NCBI GenBank assembly: GCA_964596415.1
Contig: CAZQSX010000001.1
Coordinates: 37,508 to 101,507 of the forward strand
Length of the DNA: 64,000 nucleotides
Source of the DNA: an uncultured Gammaproteobacteria bacterium
Lineage (GTDB): Bacteria; Patescibacteriota; Microgenomatia; Levybacterales; GWA1-39-11
Direction: 5' to 3'
Below, in pieces: positions 2,222 through 6,591 of this stretch (positions within the stretch are counted from its first letter, which is position 1; each line of letters starts with the position of its first letter). The position numbers and the translations under genes are program-made. The notes below the pieces were generated by a model. The model made no database searches. It was given only the letters and a program-made list of their open reading frames with translations, and was not told the DNA's origin.

Positions 2222-4375
2222 ATGAAAATCATACTAAGATTATCTTCGATATTTTTTCTTTTATTACTTCTTTCTTTTTTCCCTGTTTCTGCGCATGCTG
2301 ATGATTTAACCAAATCATGGAACGTAACCACTAGTCTCCCCTACAGTCTAGCAAGCCACGTTGCATTTGGAAACGGGAAGAAAGCATTCGTATTAGACGG
2401 TTCTGCTCAAACTGGTAATAGTCATAATCAAATAATCTCAGCCATATCAGGAGTGAGCGGTGGGTTAAGTAACTGGAGTGTTGAAGCAAGTTTTCCTACT
2501 GCTCTGATATTTCATGCTATTGCTAGAAAAGATAATAATATTTACATTCTTGGAGGCAGAGAGGAAAATCCTGGGTCTGCAATGGATCATGTTAGTAAAG
2601 TTTTTGTAGCAAACATGAATTCGTTGGGTTCTTGGGGGCAGACATTTCCGTTGCCTAGCAATCGGTCATTGGGTGCTGCCGCAATTTCAGGTGATTACAT
2701 TTACTTTTCTGGGGGATTTAATACTACTGGTTATACCAATAAAGTATATGCTTCACATATTAAACCTGACGGTATGCTTGATCCCTGGTTTGAAGTGAGT
2801 GCTTTGCCGCTAACAAGAATTGGACATGGCATGATTGAAGACAATGGAAGTCTGTATGTGTTAGGAGGAGATAATGCGAATCAAGTATATAGAGCAACTG
2901 TTAACACAAGTAATGGGACTATTTCTTCATGGTCTCAAATATCTACATTGCCAGAGAAACTATATAGATCAGCTGTTATAAAAATAGGAAACCAGATATA
3001 TATGATCGGGGGTCATAATGGGACCTCTACGATTAATAAGATTTACTTCACAACTATAAACTCTGATGGTTCGCTTGGGTCTTGGCAGCTTTCAGCGAAT
3101 ACACTTCCTTTACCTGTTCAAGGGGGAGCGGTTGCACAAGCTGGAAAATATCTTTATCTTACTGGAGGATTTAGGTCCCCACCAGGCACATATCTTAACA
3201 GTGTTTATAAAACAGAGTTAAATATTTCAATAGAGCCTGATTTAAATGTTCCGCTTTTTAAACAAACGGATCCTGCATGGGGATCACAAGTATACGATTC
3301 AGCAAATATATGGCAACCAAATAATCCCGGGATTGATGCATCGGGATGCGCCCTTACTTCTGCTGCGATGGTATTTAATTATCATAAGATAACAAAATTA
3401 CCCGATGGATCAAGCCTTGATCCAAAATCTCTGAACATCTGGCTAAAAAACAACAACGGATATGTCGGGGGTGCTGTAAGTTGGGTAAGGTTATCGGCTC
3501 TGAGTGAGTTCGCTAAGTCTCAAAATTCTGCATTTACGTTTGATAGTCTGAAGTATTTCAGAGTAAATGAATTTAATGGAGAACAACTATTAAATGATTT
3601 AGAGCAAGGTATTCCTGGAATTCTTGAGGTTCCAGGGCATTTTATTGTGGGTAAGGGAGTTCAGAATGGAAAATTTTTAATTAATGATCCGTTTTATAAT
3701 AGAACTTCTCTTTCAGATTATGGGGACACGTTTCTTAGCTTAGGAAGATTTGTCCCAACAAATAGTGATGTATCTTATATTGAACTTGCTGTAGATGAAG
3801 GAGCAATTCTTTCAGTCAAAAATCAAAACGGAGAAGTTGTAGGAGAAGGATTTTTGCAAGAACCATATTCTGTTGATGGGCATCCTAGTTCTAATGTTGC
3901 GCGTTATTTTTACCTCGTTCCTGTGCCAGACAATGAAGAGCATACAATTATCGTTTCAGCTGGGGAAACAAAAGAATATACGCTTATTATTCGACTTCAA
4001 GGTGAAGATGGGGAGTTTACAGAAAAAACTGTAAAAGGCATAGTTGATTCAGGTTCCCACGATATTTTTTCTTTTAATTTCAGTAAGTCCGGTAATAATA
4101 AATCAGACATCCAACAAGAACTTTCTTTTGATTCTATTATTTCGGATCTGGAGTTATTGTATAACCTGGGTGAAATTTCAAATATTGGTATCTACATTAC
4201 ATTAAGGCAAAATATTTCAGTTTCACAACAGCTTTTATCCGTAAGTAAAGCAGCATCTACAGCGCATTTAAAAAACGTATTAAGCATACTAAAATCACAA
4301 AGAAAGAAATTTGTTTCAGAAACAGCTTATAAAATTTTATATCCGCAAGTTCAGCAACTCTTATCCACGATCTGA
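2222..4375 (+). CDS. secreted Kelch-repeat beta-propeller protein fused to a C-terminal C39-like (papain-fold) cysteine peptidase domain
   Basis: N-terminal signal peptide (LLLLSFFPVSAHA). Repeated Kelch blades: IYILGG, IYFSGG, LYVLGG, IYMIGG, LYLTGG. C-terminal C39-like catalytic residues: SGCALTSAAMVFNYH (Cys), PGHFIVGKG (His), LINDP (Asp). Confidence 0.75.
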   Translation: MKIILRLSSIFFLLLLLSFFPVSAHADDLTKSWNVTTSLPYSLASHVAFGNGKKAFVLDGSAQTGNSHNQIISAISGVSGGLSNWSVEASFPTALIFHAIARKDNNIYILGGREENPGSAMDHVSKVFVANMNSLGSWGQTFPLPSNRSLGAAAISGDYIYFSGGFNTTGYTNKVYASHIKPDGMLDPWFEVSALPLTRIGHGMIEDNGSLYVLGGDNANQVYRATVNTSNGTISSWSQISTLPEKLYRSAVIKIGNQIYMIGGHNGTSTINKIYFTTINSDGSLGSWQLSANTLPLPVQGGAVAQAGKYLYLTGGFRSPPGTYLNSVYKTELNISIEPDLNVPLFKQTDPAWGSQVYDSANIWQPNNPGIDASGCALTSAAMVFNYHKITKLPDGSSLDPKSLNIWLKNNNGYVGGAVSWVRLSALSEFAKSQNSAFTFDSLKYFRVNEFNGEQLLNDLEQGIPGILEVPGHFIVGKGVQNGKFLINDPFYNRTSLSDYGDTFLSLGRFVPTNSDVSYIELAVDEGAILSVKNQNGEVVGEGFLQEPYSVDGHPSSNVARYFYLVPVPDNEEHTIIVSAGETKEYTLIIRLQGEDGEFTEKTVKGIVDSGSHDIFSFNFSKSGNNKSDIQQELSFDSIISDLELLYNLGEISNIGIYITLRQNISVSQQLLSVSKAASTAHLKNVLSILKSQRKKFVSETAYKILYPQVQQLLSTI

Positions 4376-4464
4376 ATGTAAAGCACAAGTTATTAATTTT
4401 ATTAAGTTAAAAATCCATAATCCTATTCTTGATCTATTGCTTCCTTCTCCTGCATAATAAGTAT

Positions 4465-5292
4465 ATGTACGGGAAGTTTGTTATCAAAAAAAACGGTGAG
4501 CTAGAGCCATACAGTGAAGAAAAAGTAATTTCCTCCATGAATCGCGTTGGCGTTCCAAGCATTCTTCAGCCAGAAGTACTAGCTCACATACGGGATCGAT
4601 TTACGGGTGAATACATGGAAACAGATGAGTTGTTCAGGCACGTATTTGAGTTTTTAGAACCAAGAGATAAAAAATCAACGCTGAGGCTTAATTTGCGCCG
4701 GGCAATTTTTGAACTAGGTCCAACCGGGTTTCCGTTTGAAAAATATGTTGCAAGAATTTTTCAGTCCCAAGGATATAAGACTTTGGTTGGTTCATATTTA
4801 AATGGAGAGTGTGTTCGGCATGAAATAGATGTATTAATAGAAAAGGATGGGAAAAAAAGTAATGTGGAGGTGAAATTTCATAATGACGGAGGAATAAAAA
4901 CTGATATTCAGGTAGTTTTATATACATATGCTAGGTTTTTAGACATTTCAAAACAGAATGGCATATCTGAATGTTGGGTTATAACTAATACAAAACTTAC
5001 AACTGAGGCAATTACCTATGCAAAATGCAAAGGAATACACGTACTTGCTTGGAATTATCCAGGGGAAAATAATTTGCAAGATTTTGTGGAAAAACCAAAT
5101 ATGTACCCAATTACAACTATTACTGAGTTAACCCGTCAAGAAAAGCAGAGGCTTATTGAGGATAATATGATTCTAGCATCTGATCTTTTAAAAATTACCC
5201 CTGATGAAGTAAAAACATTTCCTCTTGTTAAGCGTCATAGATTAGTAAAGGCTATAAAATCCGCAGAAATTTTGTGTAATGGCGGGGTATAA
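4465..5292 (+). CDS. ATP-cone domain fused to an Mrr-like PD-(D/E)xK restriction-endonuclease-fold domain
   Basis: N-terminal KFVIKKNGELEPYSEEKVISSMNRVGV matches the ATP-cone consensus (V-KR-G--E-F---KI). The middle region GFPFEKYVARIFQSQGYKTL...HEIDVLIEKDGKKSNVEVK matches the Mrr_cat core (D...E-x-K). The ORF track starts at 4429; the ATG at 4465 (MYGKF) was chosen. Confidence 0.7.
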   Translation: MYGKFVIKKNGELEPYSEEKVISSMNRVGVPSILQPEVLAHIRDRFTGEYMETDELFRHVFEFLEPRDKKSTLRLNLRRAIFELGPTGFPFEKYVARIFQSQGYKTLVGSYLNGECVRHEIDVLIEKDGKKSNVEVKFHNDGGIKTDIQVVLYTYARFLDISKQNGISECWVITNTKLTTEAITYAKCKGIHVLAWNYPGENNLQDFVEKPNMYPITTITELTRQEKQRLIEDNMILASDLLKITPDEVKTFPLVKRHRLVKAIKSAEILCNGGV

Positions 5293-5345
5293 TTTTTACT
5301 CTACTTTTTATTGACAAGTGAAGTTTTTGACGGTAGTATAAGACA

Positions 5346-5813
5346 ATGAAGCTTACATTTCTTTTTAAAATTTTACCAGCACAATATGCACATGCTCATT
5401 GTGATATTCCATGCGGAATTTATGATCCAAACCAAGCGCAGCTTGCAGCTCATACCGTCTATCGTATGGTGCAGTTATTGGAGGAGCACCAGGAAAATGT
5501 TCATGATGTTGCTCGCATAACACATGTGAAAGAAGAACACGGAGAATTAGTTGAAGATGCACTCGGAACACTTGAAAATGATTATTTTAAGAAAGAAAAT
5601 TTTGAGAAATTTCCTGAGCTTAGGGATTTAATTTCTGATGCGGTACAGCTTTCAATAAAAACACGTCAAAAAGTTGATCTGCAACTTGCTGGAGAATTAG
5701 TTGAAAAAGTAATGCTTATTTCAGAAATCTTTTATAAGTCAAAAGGGGTTACTCCTGTTCGCATGAAATCTGTCTACCCTACAGAATTAGAATTTGTTAC
5801 TTATGCCGCATGA
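5346..5813 (+). CDS. sodN: nickel superoxide dismutase precursor (Ni-SOD)
   Basis: Leader MKLTFLFKILPAQYAHA is followed by the Ni-hook HCDIPCGIYDP, the diagnostic Ni-SOD N-terminus His-Cys-x-x-Pro-Cys-Gly-x-Tyr. Length is about 155 aa with a four-helix-bundle-like remainder. A promoter-like TTGACA-17-TAGTAT lies at 5321-5349. Confidence 0.85.
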   Translation: MKLTFLFKILPAQYAHAHCDIPCGIYDPNQAQLAAHTVYRMVQLLEEHQENVHDVARITHVKEEHGELVEDALGTLENDYFKKENFEKFPELRDLISDAVQLSIKTRQKVDLQLAGELVEKVMLISEIFYKSKGVTPVRMKSVYPTELEFVTYAA

Positions 5814-6073
5814 TTGTTAGACGTTTTAAAATTACTGGTCACAGTATGCAACCTACTTTTAGCCCTGGAGATCAAGTAATATCTTGGAAATTCTCAAAGA
5901 TAAAAAAAGGTGACGTTGTGGTTGTTCAATATCTTTCAAAACATATAATAAAGCGTGTTATACAAATATCAAAAGATTTCATTATTTTAACAGGAGATAA
6001 TAAAAAAGATAGTTTAAAAATTCCCCCAATCCCAAAACGTGATATTATTGGAAAGGTGATTCTAAAAATATAA
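5810..6073 (+). CDS. sodX: S26/S24-family signal-peptidase-like maturation protease for Ni-SOD (SodX)
   Basis: GHSMQPTF motif (Ser of the Ser/Lys dyad) and IKRVIQ (Lys). ATGA start/stop overlap with sodN. A Ni-SOD gene adjacent to an S26 peptidase gene is the classical arrangement. Confidence 0.75.
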   Translation: MIVRRFKITGHSMQPTFSPGDQVISWKFSKIKKGDVVVVQYLSKHIIKRVIQISKDFIILTGDNKKDSLKIPPIPKRDIIGKVILKI

Positions 6074-6075
6074 TT

Positions 6076-6591
6076 ATGCTTTTATATATTGCTGCGGCAA
6101 TTCTTATTATTTTATTACTTCTCCTTCTTTCCGCTGTCTGGCCACCTGATAGTCCATGGAGCCCTTGGTGGAAAACGTATAAAGAAGCAGGAATGGGCAT
6201 AATTACACTTGCAAACATTGATAAAAAAGATACGGTATATGAGTTAGGTTCAGGAGATGGCGAATTTCTTATTTTACTTGGAAAAAAAATAGGAGCAAAA
6301 AGTGTTGGCATAGAGATTGATCCATTACGGCATTATGTTGCAAAGCTTCGAGTAAAACTCGCTGGGCTTGAGAAGCATATTACCCTGAAAAAAAAATCAT
6401 TTCATGATGAAGACATTTCTCAAGCAACAGTTGTATATGTCTATTTAATTCCAAGAGTTTTAAAAAAAATTTTACCCAAACTTAAAAAAGAATTAAAAAA
6501 AGGAACAAGAGTTATATCATATAGATATCAAATGGATTTACCTCTTGTGAAAGAAGACAAAAAGCACAGATTATATCTTTACAAAGTCTAG
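6076..6591 (+). CDS. membrane-anchored class I SAM-dependent methyltransferase
   Basis: N-terminal TM helix (AAAILIILLLLLLSAVW), then motif I VYELGSGDGEF and acidic IEID. Confidence 0.7.
   Translation: MLLYIAAAILIILLLLLLSAVWPPDSPWSPWWKTYKEAGMGIITLANIDKKDTVYELGSGDGEFLILLGKKIGAKSVGIEIDPLRHYVAKLRVKLAGLEKHITLKKKSFHDEDISQATVVYVYLIPRVLKKILPKLKKELKKGTRVISYRYQMDLPLVKEDKKHRLYLYKV

What the first reader, a model, noticed from the sequence alone, without database searches (positions are those of the whole stretch)
4465..5292. ATP-cone fused to an Mrr-like PD-(D/E)xK nuclease domain: a candidate nucleotide-gated nuclease
The N-terminal ~45 aa match the ATP-cone, the allosteric (d)ATP-sensing module of NrdR and ribonucleotide reductases. 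The central region matches the catalytic core of Mrr-type restriction endonucleases (GY...HEIDVLIEKDGKKSNVEVK, i.e. D...E-x-K). An allosteric nucleotide sensor wired to a restriction-type nuclease is the logic used by several anti-phage systems that sense nucleotide-pool perturbation. The gene is solo, with no methyltransferase of DNA-MTase type, helicase or partner NTPase adjacent. It could therefore be a single-gene defence or stress nuclease rather than a classical R-M component.
Basis: partly seen in the sequence, partly recalled or inferred. Interest (0 to 1): 0.55.

Follow-up and report, generated by a model that had tools for sequence, protein, structure and literature searches.

The report
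ATP-cone-gated nuclease, probably not defence
The gene really does join an adenine-nucleotide sensor (ATP-cone) to an intact restriction-type nuclease and a DNA-binding tail. It belongs to a very large, vertically inherited and uncharacterised family whose context points to nucleotide or energy housekeeping rather than phage defence.

Summary
ORF 4465-5292 (+) encodes 275 aa with three domains:
- a full ATP-cone (aa ~4-82, not just 45 aa);
- an AF1548/Mrr-type PD-(D/E)xK nuclease (aa ~88-195);

The nuclease residues E92, E120, D122, E135 and K137 are invariant across relatives down to 30% identity. So is the ATP-cone lysine K8. V6, E14 and K20 match the residues whose mutation reduces nucleotide binding in NrdR.

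The family is very large: at least 595 hits in the scan of GTDB species-representative genomes, and thousands of protein clusters. Members are uniform in length. In this lineage the gene is syntenic and about as conserved as UvrD.

I found no relative in phage or IMG/VR collections, no dedicated PADLOC model, and no defence or nrd genes recurring nearby.

In Bacteroidota and on a Chlamydiota plasmid it heads an operon: nuclease, beta-CASP RNase-like hydrolase, AMP/thymidine-phosphorylase-like enzyme, PRPP synthetase, sometimes PPK2. That operon sits among fermentation and stress genes.

My best reading is a nucleotide-pool-gated nuclease for nucleic-acid turnover or salvage, not a defence gene. 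Its function has never been tested. The ATP-cone-to-nuclease wiring is a new variant of known allosteric logic.

The parts
4465..5292 (+). Complete gene: 275-aa ATP-cone / PD-(D/E)xK nuclease / AF1548-like_C protein (the stop codon is included)
   Evidence: ORF list and sequence. Relatives start at the same position. An exact 100% match is P0001.
4429..4458 (+). Promoter-like site TTGATC-18-CATAAT. It ends 6 nt before the ATG, so the mRNA may be leaderless. This is a consensus match only.
   Evidence: A second, stronger site (TTGACA-17-TAGTAT, 5311-5339) precedes the next gene, which suggests the nuclease gene is transcribed on its own.
4474..4710 (+). ATP-cone domain (aa 4-82): a beta-hairpin (aa 5-15) and four helices. 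V6, K8, E14 and K20 are the putative nucleotide-contacting residues.
   Evidence: The residues were mapped onto E. coli NrdR V51/K53/E59/K65 using the alignment and the mutational data in PMC12176259.
4714..4740 (+). Invariant junction motif L84-G85-P86-x-G88-x-x-F91-E92. It links the last ATP-cone helix to nuclease helix 1, which carries the acidic residue E92.
   Evidence: G85, P86, G88, F91 and E92 are invariant in 46 sequences at 30-68% identity.
4726..5049 (+). PD-(D/E)xK (Mrr_cat / AF1548-type) nuclease core, aa 88-195
4822..4875 (+). Catalytic strands: H119-E120-x-D122 ... E135-x-K137
   Evidence: E120, D122, E135 and K137 are invariant. D, E and K correspond to the D38/E51/K53 predicted for AF1548 in PMC1821046.
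5074..5277 (+). AF1548-like C-terminal helical domain (aa 204-271). It looks (HhH)2-like and is a presumed nucleic-acid-binding module.

Best explanation
The gene encodes a cytoplasmic, chromosomally inherited endonuclease whose activity is set by the adenine-nucleotide pool.

Shown. A complete ATP-cone with the inner-site nucleotide-contacting residues is joined to an AF1548-type PD-(D/E)xK domain through an invariant LGPxGxxFE junction. The nuclease domain has an invariant E...ExD...ExK active site. It is followed by a helix-hairpin-helix-like domain.

Inferred. As in ribonucleotide reductases and NrdR, binding of ATP versus dATP/ADP to the cone changes the oligomeric state or the domain packing. 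This either exposes or sequesters the nuclease and DNA-binding surfaces. I commit to product-type feedback: high (d)ATP holds the enzyme off, and a depleted pool releases it.

Physiological role (inferred from context). The enzyme performs controlled cleavage of nucleic acid to feed nucleotide salvage or energy recovery under limitation, not immunity. In Bacteroidota and Chlamydiota it would be the first step of an operon-encoded route: endonuclease, then a beta-CASP hydrolase, then an AMP/nucleoside-phosphorylase-like enzyme, then PRPP synthetase, sometimes PPK2. In Patescibacteria such as this one, which cannot make nucleotides de novo, the stand-alone gene would do the same job for salvage.
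For: Architecture and residues. The NrdR residues shown by mutation to be needed for nucleotide binding (V51/K53/E59/K65; PMC12176259) align with V6/K8/E14/K20 of this protein. K8 is invariant, and V6 and K20 are nearly invariant. E14 conservation was not scored, but the family consensus has E there.

Nucleotide-driven oligomer switching is how ATP-cones work in NrdR (PMC9110341; PMC12176259).

Housekeeping-like evolution:
- 994 clusters at 50% identity, nearly all of the best 150 being 265-295 aa and full-length.
- At least 7,522 clusters at 90% identity in the Bacteroidota branch.
- Syntenic, and as conserved as UvrD, in the window's clade.
- One copy per locus.

Operon. A beta-CASP hydrolase lies directly downstream, 0-30 bp away or with a 4-bp overlap, in 9 distinct non-Patescibacteria loci. 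The full nuclease / beta-CASP / TP-family / Prs set is in Owenweeksia, a Cyclobacterium-like TARA contig, L087, a Pontibacter plasmid and a Criblamydia plasmid. L084 and L087 add PPK2. The flanks hold PFK, 2-hydroxyacid dehydrogenase, Usp, phosphoketolase, glycogen phosphorylase and acetate kinase.

The MBL / Prs / TP trio is induced by microoxia in Bradyrhizobium (PMC6515984).

CPR bacteria are described as unable to synthesise nucleotides (abstract of bioRxiv 10.64898/2026.07.13.738296).
Against: - No biochemical or genetic data exist for any member. My literature searches found none.
- The operon partners are absent from all Patescibacteria loci and from this 64-kb window. Carrying the inference from Bacteroidota over to this gene is therefore an extrapolation.
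- Part of the cross-phylum operon conservation reflects horizontal transfer of the whole module. The Criblamydia TP and Prs proteins are 67% and 73% identical to those of Owenweeksia.
- Other Bacteroidota loci put the gene next to metal-efflux genes and P-type ATPases, which this model does not explain.
- Neighbours in Patescibacteria include DinB, an MGMT-like protein, a Cas4-like nuclease and UvrD. These would fit a repair role equally well.
- The substrate (DNA or RNA) and the sign of the regulation are guesses.
Confidence: 0.5

Rival explanations
1. DNA repair or recombination nuclease (NucS/EndoMS-like or Hjc-like) whose activity is tied to the dNTP/ATP pool by the ATP-cone. For example, it might cut damaged or branched DNA only when precursors for resynthesis are available.
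Against: These neighbourhoods are lineage-specific synteny. DinB is convergently oriented and not co-transcribed. Outside Patescibacteria the tightly coupled partners are metabolic, not repair, genes. None of the 88 loci showed a recurrent PCNA/clamp, RecA, Ruv or MutS/L link.
Confidence: 0.2
2. One reading: a single-gene anti-phage nuclease that senses phage-induced disturbance of the nucleotide pool through the ATP-cone and then degrades DNA (abortive infection or restriction-like).
For: The logic of a sensor domain fused to a PD-(D/E)xK effector is that of Can2/Card1/Cap4, and those nucleases are structural neighbours. PADLOC gives weak domain-level hits to the ZorD Mrr-like nuclease (22 bits) and to a CARF_PDDEXK model. 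The gene is solo in this window. Two full-length homologues lie on plasmids.
Against: - The position is stable and syntenic, and conservation equals that of UvrD.
- The family is large and uniform, with no sign of the domain shuffling typical of defence genes.
- No relative was found in phage or IMG/VR collections.
- Among 150 distinct neighbouring gene clusters, only three singleton PADLOC hits look defence-specific.
- The operon partners have no PADLOC hits and are metabolic enzymes.
- No methyltransferase or immunity partner was found.
Confidence: 0.12
3. A non-catalytic, nucleotide-sensing DNA-binding regulator. It would be an NrdR analogue in which the nuclease fold and HhH domain only bind DNA.
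For: The ATP-cone-plus-DNA-binding-module layout mirrors NrdR. Pfam gives a weak hit to an inactive restriction-endonuclease family, NA-iREase1, in 17 of 43 relatives.
Against: The full acidic/lysine catalytic set (E92, E120, D122, E135, K137) is invariant across 46 divergent sequences. Inactivated PD-(D/E)xK domains usually lose these residues. There is no linkage to nrd genes.
Confidence: 0.08
4. An ordinary Type II or Type IV restriction endonuclease, as database names such as 'restriction endonuclease' suggest.
For: Mrr_cat domain hit. Several records name it so.
Against: There is no DNA methyltransferase partner here or in relatives. There is no DNA-modification reader domain. Conservation is high and inheritance looks vertical. 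The names derive from the domain hit only.
Confidence: 0.03

Closest known systems
AF1548 of Archaeoglobus fulgidus (PDB 1Y88; Pfam Mrr_cat + AF1548-like_C)
   Different: AF1548 has only about 22 residues before the nuclease core, so it has no ATP-cone. It too is uncharacterised, having been solved by structural genomics with its function only predicted.
ATP-cone regulators: NrdR and the ATP-cones of NrdA/NrdD/NrdB
   Same: The N-terminal domain has the same fold and the same inner-site nucleotide-contacting residues. The expected mode of action is nucleotide-dependent oligomer or conformation switching (PMC9110341, PMC12176259).
   Different: The output domain is a nuclease, not a reductase or a Zn-ribbon repressor. 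There is no genomic link to nrd genes. The outer-site residues of NrdR (F127/Y131) are only partly matched, so whether one or two nucleotides bind is unknown.
Ligand-gated PD-(D/E)xK nucleases of CRISPR/CBASS signalling (Can2, Card1, Cdn1, Cap4)
   Different: The sensor is an ATP-cone that reads primary adenine nucleotides, not a CARF/SAVED domain that reads cyclic oligonucleotides. There are no cyclase or CRISPR genes nearby, and the context and evolutionary behaviour are not defence-like.
NucS/EndoMS and Hjc-type archaeal repair nucleases
   Different: This protein has no NucS N-terminal DNA-binding domain and no PCNA-binding motif was sought or seen. Its sensor and C-terminal domains are different.
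Microoxia-induced MBL / Prs / thymidine-phosphorylase-family gene trio (B. diazoefficiens bll3115-3117)
   Same: The same three enzyme families follow the ATP-cone nuclease gene in Bacteroidota and Chlamydiota operons. In Bradyrhizobium they are induced at low oxygen (PMC6515984).
   Different: The paper reports no ATP-cone nuclease next to the Bradyrhizobium trio. The biochemical pathway of the trio is itself not established.

Membership tests
ATP-cone (Pfam PF03477) | The sequence scores above the Pfam gathering threshold | tested here: not met
   The window protein scores 17.8 bits against a cut-off of 25.8. Relatives do better: all 43 hit at E<=0.01, best 5.4e-7.
ATP-cone (Pfam PF03477) | Profile-level homology to experimentally solved ATP-cones over the whole domain | tested here: met
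   The family N-terminal profile gives NrdR E=3.6e-7 (positions 4-74), NrdD 2.3e-5 and E. coli NrdA 1.4e-3.
ATP-cone (Pfam PF03477) | Fold: a beta-hairpin lid plus a four-helix bundle | tested here: met
ATP-cone (Pfam PF03477) | Conserved nucleotide-contacting residues (NrdR V51, K53, E59, K65) | tested here: met
   They align with V6, K8, E14 and K20. K8 is invariant, V6 is nearly invariant in the close set and K20 in the divergent set. E14 conservation was not scored, but the consensus has E there. The role of these residues comes from PMC12176259.
ATP-cone (Pfam PF03477) | Actually binds ATP/dATP and transmits the signal | not testable with these tools
   This needs ITC or nucleotide-binding assays and activity assays.
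PD-(D/E)xK nuclease, Mrr_cat / AF1548 type | Pfam Mrr_cat above threshold and close similarity to 1Y88 | tested here: met
PD-(D/E)xK nuclease, Mrr_cat / AF1548 type | Catalytic E...D...ExK residues present and conserved | tested here: met
   E92, E120, D122, E135 and K137 are invariant in 46 sequences at 30-68% identity.
PD-(D/E)xK nuclease, Mrr_cat / AF1548 type | Metal-dependent nuclease activity | not testable with these tools
   No member has been assayed, and none was found in the literature searches.
Restriction-modification / Type IV restriction enzymes | A cognate DNA methyltransferase or a modification-reader domain, with mobile and patchy distribution | tested here: not met
   No DNA methyltransferase is adjacent here or recurs in 78 loci. 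The gene is syntenic and as conserved as core genes.
Catalogued anti-phage defence systems (PADLOC v2) | Matches a system-specific protein model | tested here: not met
   The only hits are a 22-bit local match to the ZorD nuclease domain and a 23-bit match to a CARF_PDDEXK nuclease domain for a Bacteroidota member.
Catalogued anti-phage defence systems (PADLOC v2) | Located in defence islands | tested here: not met
   I scanned 150 distinct gene clusters from the two genes on either side in 78 loci. The hits were domain-level ones to housekeeping-type proteins, plus three singletons (PDC-S01, LmuA, Avs1a). No formal background rate was computed.
NrdR / ribonucleotide reductase regulon | Linked to nrd genes or to other ATP-cone proteins | tested here: not met
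   The family ATP-cone profile finds exactly one ATP-cone ORF, the gene itself, in each of 90 loci with flanks of about 7-8 kb, and only one in the 64-kb window. RNRs that lack an ATP-cone would escape this test.
CARF/SAVED-nuclease effectors (Can2, Card1, Cap4) | A CARF or SAVED sensor domain that binds cyclic oligonucleotides | tested here: not met
   The N-terminal domain is an ATP-cone. Only the nuclease domains are similar.

The most novel reading that the evidence does not exclude
The ATP-cone nuclease is the gatekeeper of a previously unrecognised 'self-digestion' pathway controlled by energy charge. When the adenylate or deoxyadenylate pool falls, the cone releases the endonuclease. 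Its products are trimmed by the co-transcribed beta-CASP hydrolase to nucleotides. These are then phosphorolysed by the AMP-phosphorylase-like enzyme and fed, through pentose phosphates, PRPP and PPK2, into ATP regeneration and salvage. In Patescibacteria, which cannot make nucleotides, the stand-alone enzyme would be a near-core salvage nuclease. This would be the first ATP-cone shown to control something other than ribonucleotide reduction.
Probability: 0.25. Interest if true: 0.75.

Novelty: new variant of a known kind. Interest (0 to 1): 0.5.

Why it matters
So far, ATP-cones are understood mechanistically only in ribonucleotide reductases and their repressor NrdR. A nuclease under ATP-cone control would extend that allosteric switch to nucleic-acid degradation.

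The family is very large in Patescibacteria and Bacteroidota, with some members in Chlamydiota, Dependentiae and Actinomycetota. It is currently mislabelled 'restriction endonuclease', 'ATPase' or 'Holliday junction resolvase'. Correcting that matters for defence-system censuses, because this Mrr-like hit should not be counted as restriction. It also matters for models of how ultra-small, auxotrophic bacteria obtain nucleotides.

Culturable carriers such as Chitinophaga pinensis and Pontibacter actiniarum make the question directly testable.

Tried and rejected
- NCBIfam has no model for the family; the best hit is 12 bits.
- PADLOC gives only domain-level hits.
- Four literature searches combined ATP-cone with nuclease, Mrr, endonuclease or AF1548. 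They found no study of this architecture. The only relevant text is the 2007 GOS paper predicting that AF1548 is a nuclease.
- I followed a lead from memory that the Burkholderia lxa low-oxygen locus might contain this gene set. The paper mentions no thymidine phosphorylase, MBL or ATP-cone nuclease, so I dropped it.
- I looked in this window for the Bacteroidota operon partners (beta-CASP, TP family, Prs, Usp) and the Patescibacteria neighbours (DinB, MnmA, Cas4-like, MGMT-like). None is present.
- Phage GenBank records and IMG/VR gave no relatives.
- My first attempt to scan all neighbours by pasting sequences was impractical. I replaced it with a container alignment built from coordinate references.
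- I could not read the coordinates of the predicted model. Distances such as C116-C188 or cone-nuclease contacts were therefore not measured.
- I did not measure how many family members lack the ATP-cone, as AF1548 does.

Full report
**What is there**

The window carries an 828-nt ORF at 4465-5292 on the + strand, encoding 275 aa. An identical protein and 566 relatives exist in public data. Most are about 275 aa long and 55-86% identical, and the named ones come from Levybacteria/Patescibacteria MAGs. The window has 35.7% G+C. Together with those best hits, this suggests a Patescibacteria (Microgenomates/Levybacteria-like) genome.

**Domain anatomy**

- *Nuclease core.* Pfam Mrr_cat covers aa 88-193 at E=4.4e-7, above threshold.
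- *ATP-cone.* The Pfam hit on this single sequence is sub-threshold (17.8 bits against 25.8). Four further results support the assignment. Every one of 43 close relatives hits the model, best E=5.4e-7. A profile of the family's N-terminal 83 residues finds solved ATP-cones: NrdR 3.6e-7 over the full domain, NrdD 2.3e-5, E. coli NrdA 1.4e-3. The AlphaFold model (pLDDT 95.4, pTM 0.90) shows the hairpin-plus-four-helix fold at aa 5-82. That part superposes on NrdR, NrdD and NrdB cones.

The protein is therefore sensor, then nuclease, then a putative nucleic-acid-binding tail.

**Are the functional residues kept?**

In 46 sequences spanning 30-68% identity, the invariant positions are:
- K8;
- G85, P86, G88, F91 and E92;
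- G114 and C116;
- E120 and D122;
- E135 and K137;
- R157 and D160;
- N175, C188, P199 and P215.

E92 together with E120-x-D122 and E135-x-K137 is the classic PD-(D/E)xK set. D, E and K correspond to the D38/E51/K53 predicted for AF1548 (PMC1821046).

In the cone, the profile alignment to E. coli NrdR places V6/K8/E14/K20 on V51/K53/E59/K65. Substituting those residues in NrdR reduces nucleotide binding and alters its oligomeric state (PMC12176259).

The invariant LGPxGxxFE segment is exactly the junction between the last cone helix and the first nuclease helix, which carries E92. I take it as the likely route of allosteric coupling; this is inference.

**How the family behaves**

- A full scan of 1.84 billion representatives gives 994 clusters at 50% identity with E<=1e-3 and 413 with E<=1e-30. 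The best 150 are almost all 265-295 aa and aligned from residue ~5. The three-domain layout is therefore the norm.
Taxa include many Patescibacteria lineages, Bacteroidota (for example Chitinophaga pinensis), Dependentiae, Actinomycetota and Balneolaceae.
- A search with a Pontibacter member returned at least 7,522 clusters at 90% identity. Their names are 'ATP cone domain-containing protein', 'restriction endonuclease', 'ATPase' and 'Holliday junction resolvase'.
- No relative was found in 50,697 phage records or, by the motif-seeded scan, in IMG/VR. Only two full-length copies lie on plasmids.

**Context in the window's own clade**

In the seven closest loci the order is conserved: class I methyltransferase, Kelch/C39 protein, nuclease, Ni-SOD, its protease, methyltransferase, FemAB, UvrD, TpiA, LCP. 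The nuclease is 55-67% identical, compared with 60-72% for UvrD, 35-62% for TpiA and 38-68% for Ni-SOD. This is the behaviour of a vertically inherited gene under strong constraint.

Promoter-like sites precede both this gene and the next one, which suggests it is transcribed alone.

**Context across 78-90 loci**

I called ORFs, clustered them and counted neighbours. Recurrent neighbours are lineage-specific:
- *Levybacteria.* A large membrane protein lies upstream, and a convergent DinB lies downstream.
- *Parcubacteria/Saccharibacteria.* MnmA and MltG-like genes lie upstream. A Cas4-like PDDEXK_1 nuclease and an 87-aa MGMT-domain protein lie downstream.
- *Bacteroidota.* A beta-CASP metallo-hydrolase lies immediately downstream, with Usp proteins and a 2-hydroxyacid dehydrogenase nearby.

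Annotated records and Pfam-annotated contigs extend the Bacteroidota picture. On the Criblamydia and Pontibacter plasmids, in Owenweeksia, on a TARA Cyclobacterium-like contig and in L087, the gene starts a co-directional array:
- the nuclease;
- a beta-CASP hydrolase;
- a thymidine-phosphorylase-family protein (archaeal-type 'ARCH_P_rylase', close to AMP phosphorylase);
- a PRK07199-type ribose-phosphate diphosphokinase;
- where the flank extends far enough (Owenweeksia, L084, L087), a 229-aa protein;
- in L084 and L087, PPK2 and a P-type ATPase.

The flanks hold PFK, a GAPDH-like protein, lactate-type dehydrogenase, Usp, phosphoketolase, glycogen phosphorylase or acetate kinase. Gene overlaps of 4 bp suggest translational coupling.

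The MBL / Prs / TP trio is induced by microoxia in Bradyrhizobium (PMC6515984). Other Bacteroidota loci instead show Cus/Czc efflux genes and P-type ATPases, which I cannot explain.

**Tests of the defence and nrd hypotheses**

- PADLOC has no model for the protein. The only hit is 22 bits to the ZorD nuclease domain.
- The operon partners have no PADLOC hits.
- I scanned 150 distinct neighbour clusters, taken from the two genes on either side in 78 loci. The hits were domain-level ones (Cas4-like, MBL, PP-loop, four 'mad2' hits I take to be generic methyltransferases) plus three singletons (PDC-S01, LmuA, Avs1a).
- The family's ATP-cone profile finds exactly one ATP-cone ORF per locus in 90 loci and one in the window. 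There is therefore no adjacent NrdR or cone-bearing RNR.

**Interpretation**

The defence reading is weakly supported. It rests mainly on analogy with Can2, Card1 and Cap4, which are structural neighbours of the nuclease domain only.

The evolutionary behaviour and the only tight, cross-lineage operon point instead to nucleotide and energy metabolism under limitation. I propose a (d)ATP-gated endonuclease that opens nucleic acid for salvage or energy recovery. In Patescibacteria, described as unable to synthesise nucleotides, such a gate would be valuable. That may explain the family's breadth and conservation there.

The main rival is a repair or recombination nuclease tied to the precursor supply. 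The Patescibacteria neighbours (DinB, MGMT-like, Cas4-like, UvrD) and the fold neighbours NucS and Hjc favour it. The direction of regulation, the substrate and the oligomeric mechanism are all inferred by analogy with NrdR and RNR (PMC9110341, PMC12176259).

**Novelty**

The domain combination is already visible in databases, and PGAP calls members 'ATP cone domain-containing protein'. The architecture itself is therefore not a discovery. I found no paper that studies it. An ATP-cone driving a nuclease would be a new variant of a known allosteric principle.

The operon link to beta-CASP, phosphorylase, Prs and PPK2 genes, and the conclusion that the family is not defence, are the useful new points. 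I score interest at 0.5.

Noticed in passing
window 5346-6073: A nickel superoxide dismutase gene lies here (sodN, TIGR02753 E=1.8e-33, with an HCDIPCG Ni-hook after a leader). It is immediately followed, with a 4-bp overlap, by a short S26/S24 peptidase resembling the Ni-SOD maturation protease (42 bits, below the 63-bit cut-off). The pair is syntenic in the related Patescibacteria-like loci L001-L007.
   Followed up: partly
window 2222-4375: A 717-aa secreted protein has Kelch beta-propeller repeats followed by a Peptidase_C39_2-like domain. It is conserved just upstream of the nuclease gene in the same clade (cluster 25).
   Followed up: partly
window 4810-4812 and 5026-5028 (C116, C188 of the protein): Two cysteines are invariant across the whole family and are also present in AF1548. 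They could form a disulfide or a metal or redox site.
   Followed up: no
window 4429-4464: The promoter-like -10 hexamer ends only 6 nt before the ATG, and no Shine-Dalgarno sequence is obvious. The mRNA may be leaderless.
   Followed up: no
L081 (Criblamydia plasmid) vs L041 (Owenweeksia): The thymidine-phosphorylase-family and Prs proteins of the chlamydial plasmid are 67% and 73% identical to those of a Bacteroidota chromosome. The nuclease is about 51% identical. This indicates inter-phylum transfer of the whole nuclease / beta-CASP / TP / Prs module.
   Followed up: partly
L086, L088, L090 (Bacteroidota loci): In several Bacteroidota the ATP-cone nuclease gene is embedded co-directionally between Cus/Czc-type heavy-metal efflux genes (HMBD, CusB, ACR_tran) and a P-type ATPase. 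No hypothesis considered here explains this association.
   Followed up: no
L001-L004, L006 and other GTDB loci: Many records carrying close homologues are titled 'uncultured Gammaproteobacteria bacterium'. Their gene content and synteny match Patescibacteria loci, so the record titles look unreliable.
   Followed up: no
window 6076-6591 and 1439-2188: Two small SAM-dependent methyltransferases flank the block, one DOT1-like and one generic class I. Both are conserved in the clade. Neither scores as a DNA methyltransferase above threshold.
   Followed up: partly
L084 11659-12348; L087 11664-12347; L089 7924-8601; L041 12641-13330: A conserved protein of about 229 aa with no Pfam hit follows the Prs gene and precedes PPK2 in the Bacteroidota operon. 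In L089 it lies directly after the nuclease gene. It may be a further unknown component of the module.
   Followed up: no
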